DNA of 40,308 nt from Escherichia phage buks, in sequence record MN850616.1. One strand, 5' to 3'. A program made the translations under genes and the position numbers. A model generated the notes under the pieces. That model saw only the letters and a program-made list of their open reading frames with translations, ran no database searches and was not told the origin of the DNA. Shown here piece by piece: positions 25,222-40,307 of the stretch (position 1 is the stretch's first letter; the number at the start of each line of letters is the position of its first letter).

Positions 25222-25842
<621 letters not shown>

Positions 25843-25862
<20 letters not shown>

Positions 25863-26130
25863 ACATCCTCCGGTATTTGTAGTAGCGGGCGCCTTTCACG
25901 CAAATATGACGCACCGATTTAAGCGCGAATACGGCGACGAGAGTCGTAATTATGAATGGCGGGATGCCACCGGTAAAGAGATGAGCTAGCCCACCGGCGG
26001 CGGTAACAACGGACGCCATATACAACAGACGACCGAAAAGACCGTCTTCAATCCAGTGAGCGTAGATATTAATTAGCGAGGTGATGATGATTGCGACCAG
26101 GCAAATAACGCCGATTGGTGAGTTGAGCAT
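25843..26130 (-). CDS. Holin (three predicted transmembrane segments, basic C-terminus)
   Basis: 95 aa; three hydrophobic stretches and charged tail KYRRMYVKPKH; directly upstream of and overlapping the endolysin gene; GGGGGAAA RBS. Confidence 0.6.
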
Positions 26131-26131
26131 G

Positions 26132-26413
26132 TTATTTCCCCCACGGTAACTTAAAGTTGCTGAGGGACGAGTCGGCGGCTTCGAATAATTTAAGCCAGAA
26201 CATACCTACACCAAAAGGAACCAGGTACTGCCCCTCAGACTGCGATAGTTCATAGTAACTTATAATGATGGGGGATGCGTACACCGCACAACAGGCAGAT
26301 GCTACGAGATGGCATAATCGCAACCACGGCGAAATAGCCTCACGCTTCTTAATCTGGGATACGGCACCCCCGGCGAGGCCCGCCACACTAAGCCAAAGGT
26401 ATTTATCGTCCAC
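26132..26413 (-). CDS. Holin/antiholin-like membrane protein
   Basis: 93 aa with hydrophobic segments; GTG start (no in-frame ATG upstream); adjacent to holin-endolysin pair. Confidence 0.45.
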   Translation of the reverse strand: MDDKYLWLSVAGLAGGAVSQIKKREAISPWLRLCHLVASACCAVYASPIIISYYELSQSEGQYLVPFGVGMFWLKLFEAADSSLSNFKLPWGK

Positions 26414-26452
26414 AATAAAAAATCTCCGAAAGTTGGTTTACCTTTGGAGATT
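26414..26452 (-). terminator. Terminator-like hairpin after the HslV-like gene
   Basis: Imperfect ~10-bp stem (ATCTCCGAAAG / CTTTGGAGAT) followed on the minus strand by UUUUUUAUU; the T-run abuts the GTG start of the next gene. Confidence 0.45.
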
Positions 26453-26491
26453 AACATTTATACGACAATTTTAGTAACAGATAATTCGGAT

Positions 26492-26926
26492 TTATCCTAG
26501 TCGATGTGTTATCACTCCCCCATCAGTATTAGGGTCGAAGCGCTTCGCGATCTCGACAGCAGCAGTAGCGGTGGCACCCATAAACATCGCCGTAAGTGCA
26601 TACGGAGCACCGGAGCCAACGGCTGCCGCGTTACCCGCAATTGGTATAACTGAGCTTAACGGCGAGTCCCATGACTTGAAGAATTCTACCCTGAAAATAC
26701 GGTTATCCTCTTTAACAAACACCAGCGCTGAAAAGTCGAAGTCGTAGTACTTAGGCGCCAATATCTCGGCATCGACAACCAACAGCCTACCCACCCCGGC
26801 GTCCCCGGATACACCAATAACGAAGTGGTCGTTCTCGTAAATCTTGGTATCCGTATAGTATTTAAAATTCCCCGTGACACATGTATCGCAGGCCATCGTT
26901 TCACCGTCAAAAGCTATAGTAGTCAT
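26492..26926 (-). CDS. HslV-like Ntn-hydrolase (proteasome beta-type peptidase homologue)
   Basis: 144 aa; begins MTTIAFDG (Thr directly after Met, as in HslV MTTIVSV...), Lys ~27 residues in, and C-terminal ...AVGSGAPYALTAMFMGATATAAVEIAKRF... resembling HslV ...GSGGPYA..AARAL...ARDIAEKAL... (recalled, not aligned). Confidence 0.6.
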   Translation of the reverse strand: MTTIAFDGETMACDTCVTGNFKYYTDTKIYENDHFVIGVSGDAGVGRLLVVDAEILAPKYYDFDFSALVFVKEDNRIFRVEFFKSWDSPLSSVIPIAGNAAAVGSGAPYALTAMFMGATATAAVEIAKRFDPNTDGGVITHRLG

Positions 26927-26931
26927 ATAAG

Positions 26932-27303
26932 TTACCTGAACGTATAAAGTCGAATAGATGGCTTGTGCGGGATATCGGAATACCCACGTTTACGCCACAA
27001 CTTATACAGTTTAACAGCCATATGCGCCCGGGCCTGGCTACTGAACTCACCGAGGTTTACCACTTTCTTGCTGTCGTAAGAGTGCGCACGCCACAGACCT
27101 TTGCCTACGCAATACTTAGGCTGATGGACCCCAGGTATACGCGGATACACATCCGGCATCTCATTAGCTGGCTTTACTCGCGGCTTAGGTTTACGTTTAC
27201 GCTTGTCTTCTTCCTTAGGACGAGTAACCTTCTTTGTTACCGCCGATGAAGGCGGTGCAAGGTTAATACCGGCGTGTTTCAGGATATCGGTTGCGAGGCT
27301 CAT
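26932..27303 (-). CDS. Basic protein with AP2-like DNA-binding segment
   Basis: 123 aa; Lys/Arg/Pro-rich N-region then ...IPGVHQPKYCVGKGLWRAHSYDSKKVVNLGEFSSQARAHMAVKLY... resembling AP2-type domains; weak. Confidence 0.35.
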   Translation of the reverse strand: MSLATDILKHAGINLAPPSSAVTKKVTRPKEEDKRKRKPKPRVKPANEMPDVYPRIPGVHQPKYCVGKGLWRAHSYDSKKVVNLGEFSSQARAHMAVKLYKLWRKRGYSDIPHKPSIRLYTFR

Positions 27304-27305
27304 AA

Positions 27306-27509
27306 TTATTTCTCCTGTTTACCAAGTCGCTTAGGCGAGCAGATAGCGCGTACTTCTGAATCATTTGGCTTGTCGCCCTGAAACAGGAAGTGCGCATTCT
27401 CGTTGGCGCGTGCCGCTGACCGGCACGCCTCTAATGTGTAAAACGTTTCCGATGCCGCGAGTTGCATCTGGCCTGCGGACAGTACCCAGATAAATAAGAT
27501 ACTGGTCAT
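27306..27509 (-). CDS. Small secreted/periplasmic protein (67 aa)
   Basis: Start re-set to ATG 27507-27509 (MTSILFIWVLSAGQMQLAAS... signal-peptide-like), which forms an ATGA overlap with the upstream stop. Confidence 0.4.
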   Translation of the reverse strand: MTSILFIWVLSAGQMQLAASETFYTLEACRSAARANENAHFLFQGDKPNDSEVRAICSPKRLGKQEK

Positions 27510-27787
27510 TTCTTTAACCCGCATATTCTGCACATCATCGACGCACTTGTATCGTAAAAGTACCAATCGTGCTCGCACCCCTGAGCATCTTCTTTACGGC
27601 AACCAGATTGCTCCGTAATTGAATCAACAAAGGCCATAAGTTCCTGGTAGGCTAAATCCCGCTCCAGCGACGCCGCTACATACTTAGCATTGCCGCCCCG
27701 CACTACAGCACGGACCATATCTGCCGAAGTATCAGCTACCGCGTCAACAAGTACCATCAGATGGGTTGCCTGTTCTTTAGTAATCAT
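27506..27787 (-). CDS. Cys-rich hypothetical protein
   Basis: 93 aa; C-terminal GCRKEDAQGCEHDW...MMCRICG cysteine cluster; AGGAGA RBS. Confidence 0.45.
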   Translation of the reverse strand: MITKEQATHLMVLVDAVADTSADMVRAVVRGGNAKYVAASLERDLAYQELMAFVDSITEQSGCRKEDAQGCEHDWYFYDTSASMMCRICGLKK

Positions 27788-27896: not shown

Positions 27897-28196
27897 CTAA
27901 ACTACTGTTACAAGCTTCCGGCGGCTCCGGCAACAGCGCCCAGGTGCGGACCCGGGGCCACTAAAACCCTGGCCATAAACGGCAACCTCCTTTAAGACCC
28001 CGAGAATCACCGGCGCAGACTCTTTAGAATCTTTTGCCGTGTAGTTGTTTCCGATTGGCTCGAAAGTATCTCGTCTAACCCACCCATGAATCCTGTGTCC
28101 CTCAGGTAATAGGATAATCCTGGTCGGATTTTTGCTATAAACGAAATAGCAATTCCCGCTTATCTTATGCCGTAGCAACTGGCCCCTTTTAAACAT
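27897..28196 (-). CDS. Hypothetical early protein
   Basis: 99 aa; first gene after the minus-strand promoter/operator at 28227-28257; GAGGA RBS; followed by a terminator. Confidence 0.45.
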   Translation of the reverse strand: MFKRGQLLRHKISGNCYFVYSKNPTRIILLPEGHRIHGWVRRDTFEPIGNNYTAKDSKESAPVILGVLKEVAVYGQGFSGPGSAPGRCCRSRRKLVTVV

Positions 28197-28228
28197 GGTT
28201 CATCCTCTTTTCTCGTTAACCTGCAATA

Positions 28229-28257
28229 ATAGTACTCTATTATATTTGGTTACGCAA
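28229..28257 (-). promoter_or_regulatory. Candidate minus-strand promoter TTGCGT-N17-TACTAT with overlapping operator-like site
   Basis: -35 is the reverse complement of 28252-28257, -10 of 28229-28234; palindromic site TAATAGTACTCTATTA at 28227-28242 supplies the -10; ~25-nt leader to gene 27897-28196. Confidence 0.45.
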
Positions 28258-28727
28258 GTGCCTTTTTATTCTTTTCTCTCGTCCCTCGTCAGGTAAGCGC
28301 TTGCCGTGAGGCAAGTGCGTTAATCCCTGAGAAGCAGACTAAGAATCTTTCGGCATACAAGAGAACAGTTACGTTTGCCGTTGTTCAGTGTTGTGCCTTT
28401 ATTCTTATTATCTGGTAACTAAAGGGCAGGCCTTAAGCCTGCCCACTAATCGTTACATTTTACGGTTGCGAATCTACGGCACATCAAGGAAATCAGATAC
28501 TTAAGAGATATGCTGCCGATGAGAATATAGCTCGCCCAAGGCAGTTCAGATACTAAGGAAGGAAGTTACTGAGTTTTAAGTTTGCGGGTTTCAGTAAGCC
28601 TTAACGCGTTTCCGCTTAGGGCGGAACCGCTAAGCTCTCACAAGGTGAAACAGAAACTTAAGTAACTTGAAGTTACAAGAGACAACTTACACGAAAAAAA
28701 CAAGAATGTCAATAGGTGTGTTTATAG

Positions 28728-28756
28728 TTGATTTCCCATTATGCCGTGGGTATACT
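28728..28756 (+). promoter_or_regulatory. Candidate promoter TTGATT-N17-TATACT for the plus-strand replication operon
   Basis: -35 at 28728-28733, -10 at 28751-28756, followed by GGAGG RBS and ATG 28788. Confidence 0.5.
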
Positions 28757-28787
28757 TGCTTTACTAACTGAGATGGAGGGTTTGATA

Positions 28788-28958
28788 ATGACACAGAATG
28801 AAGTAGCTAAGCTTATTGGGGTGACCCGCCGTACGCTGAATAACTGGCTAAGAGACGGCAAGTTCCCGGATTGTTGTGTCCGGATTATGGGCCGCCGGAT
28901 GCCAGGTACGTTTGACCGGGAGAAAGTGGAAGCGTGGATTAGGGAGAATGTAAAGTGA
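28788..28958 (+). CDS. Small helix-turn-helix DNA-binding protein
   Basis: Start set to ATG 28788-28790 with GGAGG RBS 8 nt upstream (MTQNEVAKLIGVTRRTLNNWLRDGKFP...), not the TTG at 28728; classic HTH segment. Confidence 0.55.
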   Translation: MTQNEVAKLIGVTRRTLNNWLRDGKFPDCCVRIMGRRMPGTFDREKVEAWIRENVK

Positions 28959-29188
28959 CCGATTTCCAGAAAAGAGTATTCAGGGCTGTAGCCGCTCTTA
29001 CATTTAAAAAGGGGTCTTGTAGTGTCCTTGACTTGCGCCGCACTTATTTTCAGTACTATAGTTCCTCTCTCATCGAGAACACGTTGAAGGTTCTGGTTAG
29101 AGACGGAGCAGTTAAAAGTAAGGCCGGAAAATATTCGGCAGTAGCTGAAGTTAAATGCTCTCAGGCGACGCCCGAAGACCTTGAATAA
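28955..29188 (+). CDS. Hypothetical protein
   Basis: 77 aa; GTG start overlapping upstream stop (GTGA) with AGGGAG RBS. Confidence 0.45.
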   Translation: MTDFQKRVFRAVAALTFKKGSCSVLDLRRTYFQYYSSSLIENTLKVLVRDGAVKSKAGKYSAVAEVKCSQATPEDLE

Positions 29189-29244
29189 AAGAAAAGCCCC
29201 AACGCGCGAACGTCAGGGCTTTAAACACTACAAAGGAAAAGCAC

Positions 29245-31431
29245 ATGTCAACAGGTAATCTAGCATACTCATGGTCGCGTAGCAATCGCCGTGAGGAACG
29301 CGCTGACATTAACGTTTACACCACGACTTCCGGCACCTGGGATGAGTTCGTTGAACTTATGCAGCCGCTTAAACGTTCGCGCCGGAACCCCAAGACAGAC
29401 CCCGGATATATCACCGCCGCGTGTACCGCCACGGTAAGCTCTACAGGTAAAGAAGCCGCCGAAGGTATGTTTTATCGCTGCAATGCGTCCGTAACGTCTT
29501 CGTCCCTGGCTTACGCCGACGTGGATAGTGCGACTCCGGAAGAGTTCGCCACTGATTGCGAGATGGTGCGTGAGTCGCGTTTCGCAATGATGCTCTACAC
29601 CACGGCATCCCACACCGAAGAAGCGCCACGCTATCGCATCGTTATGCCGGTGCGCACTCCGGTAACCGGCGGCGACATCATCCGCATCCGGTACGGTCTG
29701 CTGACGCATTTCCTTAAAGGCCGTGACGTAGATAGCGCGGGCTTCACCCTGTCGCAACCGATGTACCGCCCGCCAGTGGGAAGCCAGGTCATCGTGTCTG
29801 AAAGTAGCCGCATGATTACGGCAAGCAAGCTTATGGAGGGGGTGCCTGAAATTAACGTTACGGGTGCTTCCGATTATAAGGTGCCAGAGGGTGAGCAATC
29901 TGAGTTAACCGACCTGTTCGAAGAGTTCGCTTTCGAGTTCGGCGGCCGTATGACTGACCGTGGCCTGCAAATGCCGGCGACGCCAGAACATGCCGCCCAA
30001 TACTCGACGGGGGAACCGAAACAGGACGACTTCCTTTTCTGTTGGCCCCGCGATGGCTTCGAGCGCCCCAACGTAACCATGTACCATGACACCGACCTGG
30101 TGGCCACGGGTGGGATGACACCCGGCGGACGGGATATGTGGGTCTACGCTTGCACCGCTACCGGTTTGCCGTTTGACCGTGTAGAGGTAGCGCTTGGCTG
30201 GGCGCCCGGCGTTACTTGCGACGAAGAAGACCTGGCCGACGAAGAACCCCCGGCGCCGCAAGCGGATTTCATCGTCGAAGGATATATGCCGTCTAACTGC
30301 ATATGGGATATCGTCGGGGAATCCGGGACGTATAAATCGTTCTACACACTCGGCATGATGTATATCAGTGCTGCCGGGTACCGGTTCGCGGGGGCGGACA
30401 CCCGTAAAGCCCATCATTTCTATATTGATGGTGAGGGTGGGGAGTTCACGCACACCCGTATCGCTGCGTTGGCCGCTAAATACGGCGATGAAGGTATGCG
30501 GTATATGCATGTGCTTGACGCTGGTGAGTTTGCGGATACGAAGAAACTGGTTCGTAAAATGCGCCAGCTAGCGGGCAGTGAACCTGTCGGGATGGTTGCT
30601 TTCGATACGCTTAACCAGACCTTCGGAAACTGGATAGACAAGTTCAATGAGAACTCCGCGGGCCAGGACGGGATGGGGCGGGTAGTGGCGATGCTCAAAG
30701 AAGTACGCGACGGTACTAAAGGTGCTGTAGGTGTTGTCCACCACACCCCGAAAGGTGGGAGTAAGGCGCGCGGAAGTGGGGCGCTGTACGCCGGTGTCGA
30801 CGTCGAGCTTACGCTTGTCCGGGCGACCGAGAAACAAATAAACGTTGCACATACCAAGAACAAAAACGGTATGCAGCAGAAAACAATAGGCATGGTGCTT
30901 GAACCAGTACAGTTTCGCGAGGCCCCGCCGCCGAAAGAGTTCCAGGCTGTAGAATTCGTTGGGGGTGAGGGATACGGGGAAATCGTTAACCTAGACCTGC
31001 CGGAACCGCATAAAGCTCTTGTACTCATGCCGTGGGGCTTCCAACCGTTCGAAACGGACGAGGAAAAAGAGCGCAACGAAGGACTGGACGGTAAAGGTAA
31101 AGATTCCGTAAAGGATACAGTTAAACGGTCTAAAGATGCTTCCGCACGAGAATCGGTTATGTCTGCTCTCGAGGATTTACAGCAAGCCGATGATACCGGA
31201 CGAGGTTTCACACAACGGCAAATAGTCGCCAGGGCTGGGGACCACAGCATAACAAACTTGGTGCTCGAGAAGATGCTACGAGAGGGTGAATTGATGCTTG
31301 GTTGCGATGAGAATGGTGAAGTTGTAACGAATACTTACAGGTTGCCGACGGGTATAGATGACCGTAAGCGGCCAAAGAACAGGTATGAACCTAACGACAA
31401 CATAAAGACAACAGAAGGGGATTTAGAGTAA
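29245..31431 (+). CDS. Replication protein: primase-polymerase-like N-domain fused to RecA-like P-loop ATPase
   Basis: 728 aa; N-region with acidic motif AYADVDSATPEE; central Walker A-like GESGTYKSF and downstream ...VGVVHHTPKGG...; C-terminal winged-helix-like tail. Domain names are from recollection. Confidence 0.6.
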   Translation: MSTGNLAYSWSRSNRREERADINVYTTTSGTWDEFVELMQPLKRSRRNPKTDPGYITAACTATVSSTGKEAAEGMFYRCNASVTSSSLAYADVDSATPEEFATDCEMVRESRFAMMLYTTASHTEEAPRYRIVMPVRTPVTGGDIIRIRYGLLTHFLKGRDVDSAGFTLSQPMYRPPVGSQVIVSESSRMITASKLMEGVPEINVTGASDYKVPEGEQSELTDLFEEFAFEFGGRMTDRGLQMPATPEHAAQYSTGEPKQDDFLFCWPRDGFERPNVTMYHDTDLVATGGMTPGGRDMWVYACTATGLPFDRVEVALGWAPGVTCDEEDLADEEPPAPQADFIVEGYMPSNCIWDIVGESGTYKSFYTLGMMYISAAGYRFAGADTRKAHHFYIDGEGGEFTHTRIAALAAKYGDEGMRYMHVLDAGEFADTKKLVRKMRQLAGSEPVGMVAFDTLNQTFGNWIDKFNENSAGQDGMGRVVAMLKEVRDGTKGAVGVVHHTPKGGSKARGSGALYAGVDVELTLVRATEKQINVAHTKNKNGMQQKTIGMVLEPVQFREAPPPKEFQAVEFVGGEGYGEIVNLDLPEPHKALVLMPWGFQPFETDEEKERNEGLDGKGKDSVKDTVKRSKDASARESVMSALEDLQQADDTGRGFTQRQIVARAGDHSITNLVLEKMLREGELMLGCDENGEVVTNTYRLPTGIDDRKRPKNRYEPNDNIKTTEGDLE

Positions 31432-34742: not shown

Positions 34743-36944
34743 ATGAATCTGCTTTATCTCGATACTGAAACATTCTCAGAAGCCGATTTGAAAAAAGTCG
34801 GTTCCTATGCCTATGCCGAACATCCGACTACCGAAATTGTTATCTGCACCTACGCTTTCGATGAAGGCCCTGTGCAAGTATGGGACGCCACCGACGGCAG
34901 CGATATGCCGCGTGATTTGCGTCGGGCGATGCTAAAGCTGCAAAAACCAGACAGCAATCTCAAACTGGTAGGCCAAAACTTCCTTATGTTCGACCGACCA
35001 GTTATTAAGCATTGCTGGGGATTCGAACTCCTGGTAGAAAACATTATAGACACTATGATAGTCGCGTTCCGACATGCCCTCCCGGGTTCACTGGCCGCGC
35101 TGTGTGAGGTTTTAAACATTGACGCAAGCATGGCTAAGGATAAACGCGGTAAGGCGCTGATACAGCGATTCAGTAAGCCTACGCCCAAGAACTATAAGAT
35201 TCGACGTTATACTGCCGATACCCACCCAAAAGAGTGGGCAGAATTTATTGCATACGCAAAAAGCGACATTACGTCCATGCGTGAAGTGTATAAGAAAATG
35301 CCTAAGTGGGGGAATTCTGAGTTCGAAGACCGCGTGCTGCACTTAGACCAGGTGATTAATGACCGAGGATTTAAGGTTGATGTGGCATTGGCGGAAGCAG
35401 CGATTGAAGCAGTCACGCGCCATAAAGAAGAGTTACAGGAAGAAGCCCAACGTAAATATGGCGGTTCACTAACCGGCAAAGACTTCTTGCCTATTTTACA
35501 GGAACTAGCACCGGCACACCGCATCCACAACGCACAGAAGTCGACGCTTAACGACTTGCTGGCAGATGAGGATTTACCGGACGATGCGCGCACTATTATC
35601 GAGATGCGTCTCGGGGCTGCTTCCACCGCATCGACGAAATACGCGCCGTTGCTGTTAGGTCGTTCTTCCGATGACCGCCGTCGAGGTTGTCTGCAATACG
35701 GCGGAGCGAAGCGAACACTGCGATGGGCCGGGAAAGGTTTTCAGCCTCAGAACCTGGCGCGCGGATATTATCACGACGATGAACTTGATAAGGGTATTTC
35801 CGCATTACTTAAAGGCCGTGCACACCGCCGTTTTGATGTGGCCAAGCTAACGGCATCCACTGTCCGCAGCTGTATAATCCCGGAAGACGGGTGTAAGTTT
35901 GTTGTTGCGGACTATTCCAACGTTGAAGGGCGAGGGCTTGCCTTCCTGTCCGGGGAAGAAACAGCTCTTGATACTTTCCGCGCGGGTCTTGATATATACT
36001 GCGTAACGGCAGGAAAGATGTTCGGCATGGATCCAGATGATATTAAGAAAAACTTTAAGGATATCAGACAGATAGGAAAAGCTTGCGAGCTTGGCCTCGG
36101 CTATGAGGGTGGCGTCGGAGCGTTCGTTACATTCGCCAAAAACTTAGGTCTTGACCTTATTGAGATGGCCAAAACAATGGCCGGAACTTTCCCCGACCAT
36201 ATCTGGGCCGCTACCGCTCGCGGGTATGAGTGGGCGCGTATACAGGAGGCAAAACGGCCGCCGCGTCCGGGGGAGAAGGATGACCGTCCATCGTATATTC
36301 TCGATAAGAAAGTATGGCGTACATGTGATGCTATTAAACGTATGTGGCGTGAATCGCACCCGCAAACCGTAGCTTTCTGGTGCGACCTTAAAGACGGTAT
36401 TCTTGCCGCAGTACGTAATCCTGGCCGCGATTTCTGGGCGGGCGCAAATATCCGAAGCAACGGTGAAAGAGCTATCCGTATCTGGAGAACAGTAGAAACT
36501 GATTCATCCGGTAGAAACATCCCAGGATGGTGGCTATGCATGGAGCTGCCGTCGGGGCGAATCCTATCATATCCAGGAATAGGCGTCAGCGTGACAAAGG
36601 AAACCGACGAAGACGGGCGGGTAAACACCAATGTAAGAATTAAGTACCAGGGCGAGAACCAGTTAACACGGCAGTGGACTACCCTGTACACACACGGCGG
36701 AAAGGCTTGTGAGAACATCGTTCAGGCGTTTTGTCGTGACTTATTGGCCTACGCAATGCTTAATGTTGAGGCTGGCGGGTACCCTATAGTTCTTTCGGTT
36801 CATGATGAACTGGTATGCGAGACCCCGGATACGCCAGATTACACGGTGGCGGAACTGGAAAAACTGATGTGTGCATTGCCAGAATGGGCTGAGGGTTTCC
36901 CTCTTGTAGCGGAAGGTGCGGAGTTAAAACGCTATGCTAAGTAA
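34743..36944 (+). CDS. DNA polymerase I (family A) with 3-prime-5-prime exonuclease domain
   Basis: 733 aa; exo motif LYLDTETFSE; polymerase motifs ADYSNVEGRGLAFLSGE (motif A), RQIGKACELGLGYEGG (motif B), SVHDELV (motif C). Confidence 0.9.
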   Translation: MNLLYLDTETFSEADLKKVGSYAYAEHPTTEIVICTYAFDEGPVQVWDATDGSDMPRDLRRAMLKLQKPDSNLKLVGQNFLMFDRPVIKHCWGFELLVENIIDTMIVAFRHALPGSLAALCEVLNIDASMAKDKRGKALIQRFSKPTPKNYKIRRYTADTHPKEWAEFIAYAKSDITSMREVYKKMPKWGNSEFEDRVLHLDQVINDRGFKVDVALAEAAIEAVTRHKEELQEEAQRKYGGSLTGKDFLPILQELAPAHRIHNAQKSTLNDLLADEDLPDDARTIIEMRLGAASTASTKYAPLLLGRSSDDRRRGCLQYGGAKRTLRWAGKGFQPQNLARGYYHDDELDKGISALLKGRAHRRFDVAKLTASTVRSCIIPEDGCKFVVADYSNVEGRGLAFLSGEETALDTFRAGLDIYCVTAGKMFGMDPDDIKKNFKDIRQIGKACELGLGYEGGVGAFVTFAKNLGLDLIEMAKTMAGTFPDHIWAATARGYEWARIQEAKRPPRPGEKDDRPSYILDKKVWRTCDAIKRMWRESHPQTVAFWCDLKDGILAAVRNPGRDFWAGANIRSNGERAIRIWRTVETDSSGRNIPGWWLCMELPSGRILSYPGIGVSVTKETDEDGRVNTNVRIKYQGENQLTRQWTTLYTHGGKACENIVQAFCRDLLAYAMLNVEAGGYPIVLSVHDELVCETPDTPDYTVAELEKLMCALPEWAEGFPLVAEGAELKRYAK

Positions 36945-37653: not shown

Positions 37654-37845
37654 ATGAAATACGAATATGACCGCAAACCAGCACGTGACATCGTACCGGG
37701 TGACATGATTTTCAATGTTAAGACGCGTAGGCCTGTTGCCGTAGATACAGTATTTGTTGAGTCTAACGGTAAACTGGTTATTGAAGATGCAACCGGTAAC
37801 GTCACGGCGTTCGGGCGGAAGGAATTGGTTCTGGTGGCGAAATGA
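37654..37845 (+). CDS. Hypothetical protein (63 aa)
   Basis: ATG 37654 with AAGGAA RBS; stop overlaps helicase start (ATGA). Confidence 0.45.
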   Translation: MKYEYDRKPARDIVPGDMIFNVKTRRPVAVDTVFVESNGKLVIEDATGNVTAFGRKELVLVAK

Positions 37846-40307
37846 GTAAATTCACTAGAAGGCCTTATCAAAAGCTCATGACCTCGTTCATGCTGCGACA
37901 CCCGCGCTGTAATATCTGGGCAAGTATGGGAAGCGGCAAGTGCCTGAAACGCGGGACTGAAGTTATTATGTTTGACGGTACGACCAAGAAAGTAGAAGAC
38001 GTCATCGTCGGTGACGTGCTTATGGGGCCAGATTCAACGCCTAGAAATGTACTGTCTCTCGGTAGAGGCCGGGAGATGATGTACGAGGTTAAACCGCGAA
38101 AAGGCGAGTCATATACGGTAAACGAAAGCCATATATTATCACTGCGAACTACTACAGGTATCGCAAAAGGTTCATGGCCAGATAACACCGTTTTCGACAT
38201 AAGCGTCCGCGACTGGCTTAAGTTGCCGAAATATGTAACCGGGCCTAATGGGTATCTTAAGGGTTGGCGGGTACCTGTCGATTTTCCAAGGAAAGAGCAG
38301 GACGAGGCTTTATTGCCTCCGTACCTTATGGGGCTATGGCTGGGCGACGGTACTTCGTCGTCTGGGGCCATAACATCAGGAGAGAACGAAAAGGAAATAA
38401 GGGCGTATCTTGAGTCGTACGCAGCACGTAATGGGATGCAAATACGAAAAGAAGGACTTACATGGAGTATATCTCACGGCAACACAGGTCATAAGAAGCA
38501 CGGGTTTACACACGCGCTGAAATCGGCGGGTGTCCTGAACAATAAGCATATACCGCACAATTACAAATGCGGCGACCGGAGACAGCGTTTAGAGTTGCTG
38601 GCAGGGCTTCTGGATAGTGATGGTTACTGCGATTTGTCTAAAGCAGGTTTTGACTGGATTTCGGTAAGCGAGCGACTCGCTGATGATTTTTGCTATCTAT
38701 GCCGTTCTCTTGGTTTCGCAGCTTACAAGAAGAAAACTCGTAAGCGTTGCGCAAACACTGATGTTTGGGGGGATTACTTCCGCGTATCGGTATCAGGCGA
38801 TTTTTCTGATGTACCTTTCGTGCGTGGCCGCCACCAGAATTTACCGAAGCGTAATATTAATAAAAACGTACTTAACGTTGGAATAGAATCTATAACCCCG
38901 GTCGGCGTAGATGATTATTACGGCTTCACTATCGACGGTGACCACCGGTTTCTATTAGGCGACTTCACCGTAACGCACAACACAAGCTCGACAATGTGGG
39001 TGCTTAACCGGTTATTCCGTAATGGTCAGCTTAATGATGACGACCGGGTATTAATCCTCGCCCCGTTGCGTGTTGCGTCGGGTACGTGGCCCGCGGAACA
39101 AACTAAGTGGGGGTTCCCTTGCCTTCGTGTCATCGATGCAACCGGTTCGGAGAAGCGCCGCATAGCGGCGCTGGAGTCGGACGCTAATGTGGTGTGCACT
39201 AACTACGAAGTTATCGAGTGGCTGATTGATTACTACGGCAAAGACGACTGGCCTTTTACTGTTATCGTGGCCGATGAGAGCACGAAACTGAAATCTTTCC
39301 GTAGCCGTTCCGGCGGCAGCAAGAGAGCGAAGGCGCTTAGTAAAGTGGCGTTCGGCAAGGTTAAGCGTTTCATTAACCTGACCGGTACACCATCACCAAA
39401 CGGCCTCAAAGACTTGTGGGGTCAGAACTGGTTCATCGACGCGGGTGAACGCCTTGGGTCTTCATACACGGCCTTTACCGATAGATGGTTTAACTCGGTA
39501 CAGAAAGGCAAATCTGCGATGGCGCGGGAGTACCATGCTCGCCCAGGCGCGGATAACGAGATTCACCAGAAGATGAAGGATATCAGCCTTACCATTGATG
39601 CCGCCGAGTGGTTCGGTTGTGAAGCACCGGTTATTGTACCGGTTGAGATTGACCTGCCGAAGAAAGCGCGTCAAGCCTACATCGATATGGAGGAGAAGTT
39701 ATTCGCGGAACTGGAGAGCGGAGAAGTTGAAGCGGCTAACGCCGCCGCTAAAACGGCTAAGTGCTTGCAGATTGCTTCCGGTGCCGTGTATGTGTCGGGG
39801 CCGGATGGTGAAGCAACGAAAGACTGGGAGAAAGTGCACGACGCGAAACTCGATGCGTTAGAGTCCATTGTCGAGGAGTTGCAGGGTGCGCCGCTGCTGG
39901 TGGCCTATCAGTTCAAGCACGAACTTGAGCGCATTCTTAGGCGATTCCCCCAGGCGCAGGCGTTTGCGAAAGGTGCTAAGGGTAATAAGCAGATGGAATC
40001 TTGGAACCGCGGGGAAATCGAGATTTTGTGCGTGCACCCTGCATCGGCGGGCCATGGTTTGAATTTACAGGACGGCGGGCATCATCTGGCGTTTATTTCG
40101 CAAGGCTGGAACCTGGAGCACTATTTGCAGGTTGTCGAGCGTATAGGTCCTGTACGCCAGAAACAGGCTGGCCACGAGCGTCCAGTGTTCCTGTATCACA
40201 TAGTCGCTAAAGACACGCTGGATGAGGTCGTTGCCGCGCGTACGGACGAGAAAAAATCTGTCCAGGAAGAGTTGCTTAATTATATGAAGAGACGAGGTAA
40301 GAAATGA
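37842..40307 (+). CDS. SF2 (SNF2/DEAD-like) helicase interrupted by an in-frame intein; extein ~474 aa
   Basis: Continuous 821-aa ORF; Walker A GSGK is split from its Thr by a 347-aa insert; after the insert: TSSTMW...LILAPLRVASGTW...VIVADESTKLK...NLTGTPSPN... Confidence 0.85.
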   Translation: MSKFTRRPYQKLMTSFMLRHPRCNIWASMGSGKCLKRGTEVIMFDGTTKKVEDVIVGDVLMGPDSTPRNVLSLGRGREMMYEVKPRKGESYTVNESHILSLRTTTGIAKGSWPDNTVFDISVRDWLKLPKYVTGPNGYLKGWRVPVDFPRKEQDEALLPPYLMGLWLGDGTSSSGAITSGENEKEIRAYLESYAARNGMQIRKEGLTWSISHGNTGHKKHGFTHALKSAGVLNNKHIPHNYKCGDRRQRLELLAGLLDSDGYCDLSKAGFDWISVSERLADDFCYLCRSLGFAAYKKKTRKRCANTDVWGDYFRVSVSGDFSDVPFVRGRHQNLPKRNINKNVLNVGIESITPVGVDDYYGFTIDGDHRFLLGDFTVTHNTSSTMWVLNRLFRNGQLNDDDRVLILAPLRVASGTWPAEQTKWGFPCLRVIDATGSEKRRIAALESDANVVCTNYEVIEWLIDYYGKDDWPFTVIVADESTKLKSFRSRSGGSKRAKALSKVAFGKVKRFINLTGTPSPNGLKDLWGQNWFIDAGERLGSSYTAFTDRWFNSVQKGKSAMAREYHARPGADNEIHQKMKDISLTIDAAEWFGCEAPVIVPVEIDLPKKARQAYIDMEEKLFAELESGEVEAANAAAKTAKCLQIASGAVYVSGPDGEATKDWEKVHDAKLDALESIVEELQGAPLLVAYQFKHELERILRRFPQAQAFAKGAKGNKQMESWNRGEIEILCVHPASAGHGLNLQDGGHHLAFISQGWNLEHYLQVVERIGPVRQKQAGHERPVFLYHIVAKDTLDEVVAARTDEKKSVQEELLNYMKRRGKK
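37941..38981 (+). mobile_element. Intein with LAGLIDADG homing endonuclease domain, inserted in the helicase P-loop
   Basis: Starts with Cys codon TGC 37941-37943 right after GSGK; ends ...FTVTHN (Asn codon 38979-38981) followed by Thr; internal LAGLIDADG-like motifs LMGLWLGDGTSS and LLAGLLDSDGYC; 1041 nt, in frame. Confidence 0.8.

What the first reader, a model, noticed from the sequence alone, without database searches (positions are those of the whole stretch)
28197..28787. 590-nt non-coding region between the divergent early units: hairpins, short repeats and palindromes (candidate origin or regulatory leader)
No ORF with an RBS occupies this region. It contains stable hairpins (GGGCAGGC-CTTAA-GCCTGCCC at ~28424-28444; GCTTAG/TTCCGC nested repeats at ~28607-28636), a direct repeat CAGATACT-AAG (28492-28505 and 28547-28560), three copies of AAGTTAC/GTAACTT including the palindrome GTAACTTGAAGTTAC (28661-28675), and promoters at both edges. 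It sits next to the replication module, so a replication origin with initiator binding sites, or a long structured 5-prime leader, are both plausible.
Basis: partly seen in the sequence, partly recalled or inferred. Interest (0 to 1): 0.45.

Follow-up and report, generated by a model that had tools for sequence, protein, structure and literature searches.

The report
Structured early non-coding RNA unit
The 590-base gap in this Salmonella Jersey-type phage is not an empty spacer or a repeat-type replication origin: it most likely encodes a ~260-base, strongly folded, untranslated RNA made leftward from a strong early promoter, of a kind whose best-studied relative starts DNA replication in dairy phage c2.

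Summary
The window is a Jerseyvirus (about 98% identical to phages S100 and Ent1).

- **Promoters.** The two strong sigma-70 promoters sit back to back at the right end: rightward 28728-28756 and leftward 28712-28684. A weaker leftward promoter (28257-28229) serves the first leftward gene.
- **Conservation.** A strong leftward promoter occupies the same position in every lineage examined, including five whose sequences are unalignable.
- **The transcript.** It would produce a ~260-nt untranslated RNA that ends at the 28444-28424 hairpin plus UUUAGUU, an intrinsic terminator on the minus strand only.
The AAGTTAC copies and the nested repeats are arms of this RNA's helices. Compensatory changes and fixed G·U pairs fit only the minus strand.
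- **Iterons.** None exist here or anywhere else in the 40 kb.
- **Modules.** The 3' block is absent from about 60 of 397 relatives. The 5' block is replaced by unrelated, equally structured sequences in sister lineages.

The function is inferred. The layout matches the lactococcal c2 origin, so I favour a replication-starting transcript (about 0.35). The rivals are a trans-acting RNA and a termination-control leader. Transcription itself has not been shown.

The parts
28728..28756 (+). Rightward early promoter P_R (TTGATT-17-TATACT) for the HTH_17 gene at 28788
   Evidence: Found by the tool scan and my PWM scan (score 13.6). The same promoter is present in Kagunavirus lineages.
28684..28712 (-). 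Strong leftward promoter: -35 TTGACA at 28712-28707, 17-nt spacer, -10 TAAGTT at 28689-28684. Predicted start at about 28676-28677. It lies 15 bp from the -35 of P_R, back to back.
   Evidence: PWM score 13.2, one of about 8 hits of 12.9 or more in 40 kb. A promoter of score 12.2-15.8 sits at the same place in every lineage, including sequences that cannot be aligned (Bas72 TTGAAA-18-TATAAT, ST20 TTGACT-17-TAAGCT, L054 TTGACA-16-TAAAAT). The hexamers are invariant while the spacer varies.
28417..28677 (-). Predicted ~260-nt untranslated, structured leftward RNA
   Evidence: Bounded by the promoter and terminator above. It folds with z -3.2, and the four other lineage variants fold with z -3.1 to -4.6. 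RNAalifold finds covarying pairs. There is no conserved ORF.
28563..28668 (-). Long stem-loop SL1. Basal helix AGUUAC/GUAACU (28564-28569 with 28662-28667), middle helices, helix h4 (28595-28599 with 28637-28641), and an apical compound hairpin at 28597-28636.
   Evidence: Inverted repeat I1 and MFE folds. Jersey and Kagunavirus keep the same architecture with different arm sequences. On 35 distinct sequences, h1 and h4 are 100% paired on the minus strand. One h4 pair reads AU:20 GU:13 GC:2 and another GC:25 AU:9 UA:1.
28553..28565 (-). Unpaired pyrimidine tract CUUCCUUCCUUAG, which resembles an anti-Shine-Dalgarno sequence
   Evidence: Unpaired in the centroid folds. It stays pyrimidine-only across variants. 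Unrelated 5' modules carry CCCCUCCC (Bas72) or ACCUCC (L054) at a comparable place. Its significance was not established.
28494..28557 (-). On the RNA they read (C)UCUUAAGUAUCUG and CCUUAGUAUCUG.
   Evidence: D1. Both copies are conserved in Jersey and Kagunavirus group 1. The first contains CUCUUAA, which recalls the lambda boxA core; that comparison is from memory and was not tested.
28445..28482 (-). Predicted mostly unpaired segment just upstream of the terminator, nearly invariant at most positions
   Evidence: 28424-28490 is 91-94% identical between this Salmonella phage and E. coli phages. The HTH gene is 76-87% identical and the helicase-primase 66-67%. Most columns here are invariant across 21 distinct sequences, with L075 differing in a short patch next to the hairpin.
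28414..28444 (-). Intrinsic terminator on the minus strand: 8-9 bp G+C stem (28444-28424) followed by UUUAGUUACC (28423-28414)
   Evidence: The top-ranked terminator-like site on 10.5-28.8 kb. There is no U run on the plus strand. On 21 distinct sequences, two of its eight pairs show compensatory change (A-U, G·U, G-C; and C-G, U-A), 99.6% of cells are paired, and the loop is free to vary.
28353..28413 (.). Left part of the conserved block 'core A': an A+T-rich stretch with a small variable hairpin that is deleted in this window
   Evidence: Conserved across genera. TTGCCGT here (28376-28381) is complementary to ACGGCA at 28476-28481. The unrelated module (b) keeps an equivalent closing stem. 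Its role is unknown.
28265..28352 (.). Jerseyvirus-specific insert containing the hairpin 28297-28318, whose loop reads GNRA on the plus strand
   Evidence: Absent from Kagunavirus. The loop variants are GTGA, GTAA and GCAA. Partial duplicates of core A sequence occur here (D16 and D18).
28229..28257 (-). Proximal, weaker leftward promoter (TTGCGT-17-TACTAT) just upstream of the RBS and ATG of the gene 27897-28196
   Evidence: PWM score 9.2. The equivalent TTGCAC-17-TACTAT is present in all Kagunavirus lineages.

Best explanation
**What it is (anatomy; my confidence about 0.7).** The gap is a non-coding early transcription unit.
1. Host sigma-70 RNA polymerase starts at a strong leftward promoter (28712-28684), placed back to back with the rightward early promoter.
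2. It transcribes about 260 nt of untranslated RNA. This RNA folds into a ~105-nt stem-loop (28563-28668), an unpaired pyrimidine tract, two small hairpins and a near-invariant single-stranded stretch.
3. Transcription stops at the 28444-28424 hairpin plus UUUAGUU.
4. A second, weaker promoter (28257-28229) then serves the first leftward gene.

**How it works (inferred; about 0.35).** A non-coding, structured transcript made between two co-oriented early promoters, at the point where the two gene blocks diverge, and existing in several unrelated sequence types, is the architecture of the replication origin of lactococcal Ceduovirus (c2) phages. There the PE1 transcript is needed to start replication. 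I propose that this RNA, or the act of making it, opens or primes the DNA for the phage's T7-like replisome (helicase-primase plus family A polymerase).

**Shown versus inferred.**
- Shown here: sequence features, conservation, covariation and strand asymmetry.
- Inferred: that the RNA is actually made, where its ends lie, and any role in replication.
For: **Promoter.** A strong, position-conserved leftward promoter occurs in five unalignable lineages, with invariant hexamers and a variable spacer. The chance rate is about 5 hits of this score per 80 kb of strand.

**Terminator.** The hairpin is the best terminator-like site in 18 kb, works on the minus strand only, and has compensatory changes.

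**RNA structure.**
- All five lineage variants fold with z -3.1 to -4.6.
- Helices are kept between genera through changes on both sides.
- G·U pairs are fixed in Jerseyvirus helix h4 and present in the terminator stem. On the plus strand or in a DNA cruciform these would be A·C mismatches.

**Non-coding status.**

**Conservation.** 28424-28490 is more conserved than the flanking genes.

**c2-like features.**
- Two co-oriented promoters flank a non-coding region at the divergence point.
- At least four unrelated 5' types of 215-300 nt exist.
- The description of the c2, bIL67 and 923 origins and of PE1-T is in PMC7150918.
- No iteron-type origin is found in 40 kb.
- The helicase-primase carries an AAA_25 domain.
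Against: - No transcript data exist. The one Kagunavirus RNA-seq paper reports genes only.
- The U tract is interrupted (UUUAGUU). The alternative 3' module (b) has an even weaker one.
- An intrinsic terminator releases the RNA, which is awkward for a primer.
- About 60 of 397 relatives, such as SETP7 and ER17, lack the terminator block and are viable.
- The 5' and 3' modules recombine freely in nature, whereas chimeric c2 origins are reported to be non-functional.
- Folding energy does not favour one strand: Jersey folds better on the plus strand and Kagunavirus on the minus.
- The phage has recombination genes and may not need a fixed origin.
- The resemblance to c2 is organisational only. 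No sequence or functional test was possible.
Confidence: 0.45

Rival explanations
1. An independent trans-acting early RNA: a regulatory sRNA, a protein sponge or an anti-defence decoy. The RNA is released at the terminator and acts elsewhere through its unpaired pyrimidine tract or its near-invariant 3' single-stranded stretch.
For: It has the anatomy of a classical sRNA gene, with a strong promoter, a structured body and a terminator. It has a near-invariant unpaired segment next to the terminator and an anti-Shine-Dalgarno-like tract. Variable types at an early accessory locus fit an arms race.
Against: No target stood out. Duplex energies against all start regions lie within the range given by a shuffled RNA, and the 12-mer has no significant matches. 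The terminator is missing in about 60 relatives. Sister lineages carry unrelated 5' domains. The element is absent from E. coli genomes and plasmids. No Rfam family matches.
Confidence: 0.2
2. A termination-control leader for the leftward gene array, of the lambda P_R'-6S RNA-t_R' type or the HK022 put type. Polymerase from the strong promoter stops at 28424-28444 unless it is modified by a phage factor or by the nascent structured RNA. This would time the expression of the lysis and late genes.
For: The leftward promoters head a ~30-kb co-oriented array of early-left genes, holins, endolysin, terminase, head and tail. Ent1 has at least 9 annotated intrinsic terminators in that array, and the window has few strong internal promoters. 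The terminator lies right after the leader, and a second one follows the first gene at 27879-27858. The endolysin peaks later than the HTH gene in a Kagunavirus.
Against: No antiterminator is annotated or identified. The proximal promoter bypasses the terminator. A strong promoter at 25250 restarts transcription after the lysis cassette. A plain attenuator leader would not need covariation-conserved helices. The -10-like pause element downstream of the start is inconsistent between lineages.
Confidence: 0.2
3. One reading: the repeats (AAGTTAC, CAGATACT-AAG) are double-stranded DNA binding sites for the helicase-primase or the HTH proteins, and the hairpins are cruciforms.
For: The gap adjoins the replication module. 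AGTTAC is locally enriched. There are A+T-rich patches. The cumulative GC-skew minimum is near 28 kb.
Against: The motif copies lie in inverted orientation as helix arms, not as direct iterons. No word of 8 nt occurs three or more times within 400 nt. Fixed G·U pairs would be mismatches in a cruciform. The type of the helicase-primase C-terminal domain does not co-vary with the gap type. The modules are dispensable or replaceable. The A+T-rich patches coincide with the promoters. GC skew flips wherever gene orientation flips, for example at 8-11 kb.
Confidence: 0.05
4. No dedicated RNA function. The gap holds only promoters, operators and scars of recombination between phages, and its structure and conservation are by-products of recent horizontal exchange.
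For: The region is strongly mosaic. JD01 carries a duplication, SETP7 a deletion between the short repeats CAGTTAC and CAGATAC, and there are partial duplicates of core A. High identity across genera could reflect recent transfer.
Against: There are compensatory changes in several helices. Five unrelated variants are all unusually stable. A strong promoter is kept in every one of them.
Confidence: 0.07
5. A long plus-strand 5' leader of the rightward replication operon, starting near 28250 (TTAACC-16-TATTAT), possibly paired with the leftward RNA as an antisense partner.
For: There is a plus-strand promoter-like site at 28216-28243. The Jersey sequences fold slightly better on the plus strand. 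The 28306-28309 loop reads GNRA on the plus strand.
Against: The plus-strand site is weak and poorly conserved in Kagunavirus, scoring 7-9. No plus-strand U tract follows the hairpin. The fixed G·U pairs of helix h4 and the terminator stem become A·C mismatches on the plus strand. P_R already sits next to the HTH gene.
Confidence: 0.03

Closest known systems
Replication origin of lactococcal Ceduovirus (c2, bIL67 and 923 types) with its non-coding PE1 transcript (PE1-T)
   Same: Both are non-coding regions at the boundary of two divergently transcribed gene blocks, flanked by two co-oriented early promoters. Neither has an RBS after the first promoter. Both exist as several sequence types with no similarity to each other, and in both the length and structure of the transcript appear to matter (PMC7150918; here).
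   Different: There is no sequence relationship, and the host is Gram-negative. The RNA here ends at a terminator-like hairpin in most lineages. Natural chimeras of 5' and 3' modules exist here, whereas c2 chimeras were non-functional. This phage carries its own helicase-primase and polymerase. Origin activity is untested.
Lambda P_R' - 6S RNA - t_R' late control module (Q antitermination)
   Same: In both, a strong promoter makes a short (~200-260 nt) terminated transcript immediately upstream of the lysis genes, at the head of a long co-oriented late array that contains many terminators (the lambda facts are from general knowledge).
   Different: No Q-like protein or qut element was identified. 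A second promoter lies downstream of the terminator. The leader here is under structural selection. The terminator block is absent in about 60 of the 397 matching records.
ColE1 RNA II, the T7 primary origin (phi1.1A/B) and T4 ori(uvsY): transcript-primed origins
   Same: In these systems a promoter-driven RNA whose folding or hybrid formation starts DNA synthesis replaces initiator-bound iterons. T7 uses a helicase-primase plus a family A polymerase, like this phage (general knowledge).
   Different: No persistent-hybrid motif, RNase H site or A+T-rich unwinding element beyond the promoter regions was identified. The terminator would release the RNA.
HK022 put RNAs and the Bacillus EAR element (cis-acting antitermination RNAs)
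   Same: These are structured stem-loop RNAs just downstream of an early promoter, ahead of terminators (general knowledge).
   Different: put is about 70 nt with a specific two-stem shape. Here the 5' domain is about 105 nt and is replaced by unrelated sequences in sister lineages. No Rfam family matched.

Membership tests
Ceduovirus-type transcript-dependent origin | Non-coding region between divergent gene blocks, flanked by two co-oriented early promoters, with no RBS after the first promoter | tested here: met
   Predicted promoters at 28712-28684 and 28257-28229, both leftward. No ORF with an SD sequence. Genome map.
Ceduovirus-type transcript-dependent origin | Several unrelated sequence types at the same position | tested here: met
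   At least 4 unrelated 5' modules and 2 3' modules.
Ceduovirus-type transcript-dependent origin | The non-coding transcript is produced and is required in cis for replication, and the fragment supports plasmid replication | not testable with these tools
   Needs RNA mapping and replication assays.
Ceduovirus-type transcript-dependent origin | Sequence homology to the c2, bIL67 or 923 origins | not tested
   The blastn matches of the gap in the phage collection were all phages named for enterobacterial hosts, apart from single Proteus and Pseudomonas records that were not examined. No direct comparison was made.
Iteron-type origin (lambda, P4, plasmid-like) | Three or more direct repeats that bind an initiator | tested here: not met
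   No 8-mer occurs three or more times within 400 nt in the gap. The repeats found are helix arms or a single pair.
Iteron-type origin (lambda, P4, plasmid-like) | Origin sequence co-varies with the initiator's DNA-binding domain | tested here: not met
   One C-terminal domain type pairs with three unrelated gap types, and one gap type pairs with two C-terminal types.
Iteron-type origin (lambda, P4, plasmid-like) | Essential and always present | tested here: not met
   Core A is absent from about 60 of 397 records. The B and C sections are replaced in Bas72, ST20 and L054.
Intrinsic (Rho-independent) terminator | G+C-rich stem-loop directly followed by a U tract on the transcribed strand | tested here: met
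   Minus strand: 9 pairs, 7 of them G-C, then TTTAGTT, giving 5 T within 8. The U tract is interrupted, so efficiency is unknown. The plus strand has no U tract.
Sigma-70 promoter | -35 and -10 hexamers at 16-18 bp spacing, conserved in position | tested here: met
   TTGACA-17-TAAGTT, with an equivalent promoter in all lineages. Activity is not testable here.
Any Rfam family | A match at or above the gathering score | tested here: not met
   No matches in the window. In the gap there are only E=1.2 and E=6.3 matches far below threshold.
Lambda-type Q antitermination module | Q-family protein and a qut or pause element at the promoter | tested here: inconclusive
   No antiterminator appears in the Ent1 annotation or among 6 neighbouring proteins. 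A -10-like hexamer sits at +1 to +7 in Jersey and Kagunavirus group 1 but not consistently elsewhere. Not all proteins were scanned.
Protein-coding gene | Conserved open frame with a start codon and RBS | tested here: not met
   Stops, frame shifts and indels occur between relatives. There is no ORF with an SD sequence.

The most novel reading that the evidence does not exclude
Guernseyvirinae phages carry a modular family of abundant early non-coding RNAs. A shared 3' terminator domain is joined to interchangeable, unrelated 5' 'effector' domains, each with a long stem-loop followed by an exposed anti-Shine-Dalgarno-like pyrimidine tract. These RNAs would act in trans on the host, for example by sequestering ribosomes or an RNA-binding defence protein. 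Their diversity would reflect an arms race.
Probability: 0.12. Interest if true: 0.7.

Novelty: new member of a known kind. Interest (0 to 1): 0.45.

Why it matters
Jersey-type and Kagunavirus phages are widely used as Salmonella and E. coli biocontrol agents, therapy candidates and synthetic-biology chassis. Their origin of replication and their early and late gene control are both unknown.

- This gap is left unannotated, or filled with spurious 'hypothetical proteins', in hundreds of GenBank records.
- If it is a transcribed, structured RNA unit, it defines the true early promoter pair and gives a concrete candidate for the replication start or the timing switch.
- It marks a site that genome engineers should not use as a neutral insertion point.
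- The natural variants, such as the SETP7 deletion and the module swaps, already provide a ready-made set of mutants.

Tried and rejected
- **Rfam.** Both the gathering-score scan and the permissive scan found nothing meaningful. There are no tRNA or tmRNA genes.
- **Small proteins.** The annotated ORFs in relatives (SETP7 gp48, K9_046, SHAK7693_0059, NTEC3 gp39, Bas72_0055/56) are broken or frame-shifted between lineages and lack an SD sequence.
- **GC skew as origin evidence.** Rejected because it tracks gene orientation.
- **Iterons elsewhere.** I looked near the helicase-primase 3' end and across the whole window and found none.
- **Strand choice from folding energy.** Inconclusive.
- **Targets of the RNA.** Duplex energies against the start regions of all genes were no better than with a shuffled RNA. 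The 12-mer search gave chance-level matches.
- **Core A in host or plasmid DNA.** Absent from 5,426 E. coli genomes and from PLSDB plasmids.
- **CRISPR-repeat mimicry and the lambda boxA/boxB idea.** Considered from memory only and not supported by any test.
- **A sigma-70 pause element after the start site.** Inconsistent between lineages.
- **Physical genome ends here.** Rejected because Jerseyviruses package by the headful mechanism (PMC9409062 and PMC10783031).
- **Literature.** Searches for this region, for a Jerseyvirus transcriptome or for an origin found nothing. The primary c2 papers are not held.
Full report
**Identity and setting.** The window is a Jerseyvirus (Guernseyvirinae) siphophage of Salmonella. 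The 2 kb around the finding is 98.5% identical to phage S100 and 98% to vB_SenS-Ent1, and 394 phage records match it. The gap at 28197-28787 lies between a leftward ORF (27897-28196) and a rightward operon. That operon encodes an HTH_17 'excisionase-like' protein (28788-28958), a small protein of unknown function, and a 728-aa helicase-primase with an AAA_25 domain. In the Ent1 record this stretch carries no annotated feature at all.

**Checking the observation.**
- The 28424-28444 hairpin is very stable: -21.7 kcal/mol with its flanks, z -4.1.
- AGTTAC occurs five times in 310 nt, against 27 copies in the other 40 kb.
- The whole gap folds better than shuffled sequence on both strands.
- The single direct repeat is not beyond chance by itself, but it is conserved in relatives.

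The region is non-coding. The one ORF that several GenBank records annotate here starts ATGAGAATAGAG, whereas the window and many relatives read ATGAGAATATAG, a stop. Its frame also differs between genera. No variant has an ORF of 12 or more codons with a properly spaced Shine-Dalgarno motif, apart from one weak TTG ORF in Bas72.

**Promoters.** A position-weight scan shows that the two strongest promoters of the gap sit back to back at its right end.
- P_R is TTGATT-17-TATACT at 28728-28756.
- The leftward promoter is TTGACA-17-TAAGTT, with its -35 at 28712-28707 and its -10 at 28689-28684.

Only about eight sites in 40 kb reach this score, against about five in shuffled sequence. One hit therefore proves little. 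What counts is position: a leftward promoter scoring 12.2-15.8 lies at the equivalent place in every lineage examined. This includes lineages whose sequence there cannot be aligned with the window, namely Bas72 (TTGAAA-18-TATAAT), ST20/L057 (TTGACT-17-TAAGCT with TG) and L054 (TTGACA-16-TAAAAT). Within the alignable lineages the hexamers never change while the spacer does. A weaker leftward promoter (TTGCGT-17-TACTAT, 28257-28229) sits directly upstream of the first leftward gene, and its counterpart TTGCAC-17-TACTAT is present in all Kagunavirus lineages. The gap is therefore flanked by two co-oriented leftward promoters, not by one promoter at each edge facing outwards.

**The 28424-28444 hairpin as a terminator.** Only on the minus strand is the hairpin followed by a U-rich tract (UUUAGUUACC). 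The scan ranks it as the top terminator-like site in 18 kb. Across 21 distinct sequences its loop varies freely while the stem is kept. One pair runs A-U, G·U, G-C, and another runs C-G, U-A. Promoter and terminator together predict a leftward RNA of about 260 nt, from about 28677 to about 28417.

**Structure of the predicted RNA.** The RNA is strongly structured (z -3.2). So are the equivalent RNAs of four other lineages (z -3.1 to -4.6), even though their 5' two-thirds are unrelated in sequence.

- AAGTTAC at 28563-28569 pairs with GTAACTT at 28661-28667 as the base of a ~105-nt stem-loop, SL1.
- The 'nested' GCTTAG/TTCCGC repeats form its apical hairpin.
- The GTTAC/GTAAC pair at 28452 and 28416 extends the terminator stem.

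Jerseyvirus and Kagunavirus keep the SL1 architecture with different arm sequences. On 35 distinct sequences, the two helices that align cleanly are 100% paired on the minus strand. In helix h4, one pair reads AU:20 GU:13 GC:2 and another reads GC:25 AU:9 UA:1.

The G·U state is fixed in most Jerseyviruses. It would be an A·C mismatch on the plus strand or in a DNA cruciform, and the same holds for the G·U intermediate in the terminator stem. This is the main evidence that the structure is RNA and is read from the minus strand. Folding energies alone do not decide the strand.

**Mosaic structure.**
- A block I call core A (about 28353-28490, containing the terminator) is 91-94% identical between this Salmonella phage and E. 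coli phages. That is more than the neighbouring HTH gene (76-87%) or the helicase-primase gene (66-67%).
- About 60 of 397 matching records, including SETP7 and ER17, nevertheless lack it. They carry a deletion between the short repeats CAGTTAC and CAGATAC.
- JD01 has it partly duplicated.
- Other lineages replace it with an unrelated module (b), built around GGGTGGGC-GTTA-GCCCACCC inside an AGAGTAC/GTACTCT stem and followed by a weaker U tract.
- At least four unrelated 5' modules exist, and they combine freely with either 3' module.
- Core A is absent from E. coli genomes and from plasmids.

**The origin hypothesis.**
- There are no iterons in the gap, near the helicase-primase gene, or anywhere in the 40 kb.
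- The variable N- and C-terminal domains of the helicase-primase do not co-vary with the gap type. One C-terminal type is found with three unrelated gap types.
- GC skew changes sign wherever gene orientation changes, so its minimum near 28 kb is uninformative.
- The A+T-rich patches coincide with the promoters.

An origin made of initiator binding sites is therefore not supported.

The overall layout, however, is that of the Ceduovirus (c2) origin. That origin is a non-coding region between divergent gene blocks, bounded by two co-oriented early promoters, existing in several unrelated types, and producing a non-coding transcript (PE1-T) thought to start replication (PMC7150918). The phage has a T7-like replisome and no iteron origin in 40 kb. 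I therefore rank a transcript-dependent origin as the most likely function, at about 0.35.

Against this reading:
- A terminator would release the RNA.
- Natural module chimeras exist here, whereas c2 chimeras were non-functional.
- The phage has recombination genes that could make a fixed origin unnecessary.

**Other readings.**
- *Termination control.* The leftward promoters head a ~30-kb co-oriented array of early-left genes, holins, endolysin, terminase, head and tail, with at least nine annotated terminators and few strong internal promoters. A lambda P_R'-6S-t_R'-like or put-like control leader is therefore possible, at about 0.2. No antiterminator is known, and a plain leader would not need conserved helices.
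- *Trans-acting RNA.* An RNA acting through the exposed pyrimidine tract or the near-invariant 3' single strand is also possible, at about 0.2. No target emerged.

**Known or new.** No Rfam family matches. GenBank records leave the gap empty or call doubtful ORFs in it. Literature searches found nothing on this region or on Jerseyvirus transcription or origins. Jerseyviruses package by the headful mechanism, so the region is not a genome end. I file it as a new member of a known kind: phage early non-coding transcription units. The anatomy is well supported by comparative evidence, and the function is inferred.

Noticed in passing
window 28293-28509 (homologous positions in GenBank records dunkel, blauehaus, skrot, horsemountain, sidste, celemicas, templet, demigod): At least eight independently deposited Jerseyvirus genomes begin or end inside this gap. 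Six of the break points fall within 28461-28509, at different bases, and some records repeat the sequence at both ends. The phages package by the headful mechanism, so these are probably assembly break points, but the clustering is unexplained.
   Followed up: partly
window 27897-28196 (-): The first leftward ORF is 99 aa, but only residues 1-58 match its PHROG family, whose profile is 60 aa. Kagunavirus homologues are about 60-63 aa, and Ent1 annotates no gene here. The C-terminal 40 residues may be a read-through extension.
   Followed up: no
window 25222-25372 (-): After the endolysin gene there is a compact punctuation: a promoter-like site (TTGACA-17-GATACT), a strong terminator (25306-25280 followed by T9), and then the best leftward promoter of the window (TTGACT-17-TATATT, score 15.4) ahead of the nin-like and terminase genes.
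   Followed up: partly
window 29245-31431 (+) and loci L031-L033: The helicase-primase is itself mosaic. Its central helicase core is nearly invariant. The N-terminal ~330 residues are replaced in Bas72, and the C-terminal ~90 residues, a possible winged-helix domain, are replaced in SHAK7693.
   Followed up: partly
window 28553-28565; L012 about 2030-2040; L054 about 2220-2235: Each unrelated 5' module carries an exposed C/U-rich motif on the minus strand that resembles an anti-Shine-Dalgarno sequence: CUUCCUUCCUUAG, CCCCUCCC and ACCUCC. On the plus strand these read as orphan ribosome-binding sites with no start codon.
   Followed up: partly
L009 (OR594180.1, Escherichia phage vB_EcoM_SHAK7693): The record's taxonomy line says Autographiviridae/Kayfunavirus and its name says myovirus ('EcoM'). 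Its gene order and sequence here are those of a Kagunavirus-like siphophage.
   Followed up: no
L087 (Ent1) 25253-27718 and 28312-31410; window about 34743-36944 and 37842-40307: Ent1's DNA polymerase and DNA helicase genes are annotated as carrying inteins. The window's polymerase ORF (34743-36944, 733 aa) is much shorter than Ent1's 3.1-kb gene, so this phage appears to lack the polymerase intein.
   Followed up: no
L006 (JD01) 1870-2050: JD01 carries a ~170-nt tandem duplication inside the gap. It repeats the Jersey-specific segment plus the left part of core A, giving two copies of the GNRA-loop hairpin.
   Followed up: no
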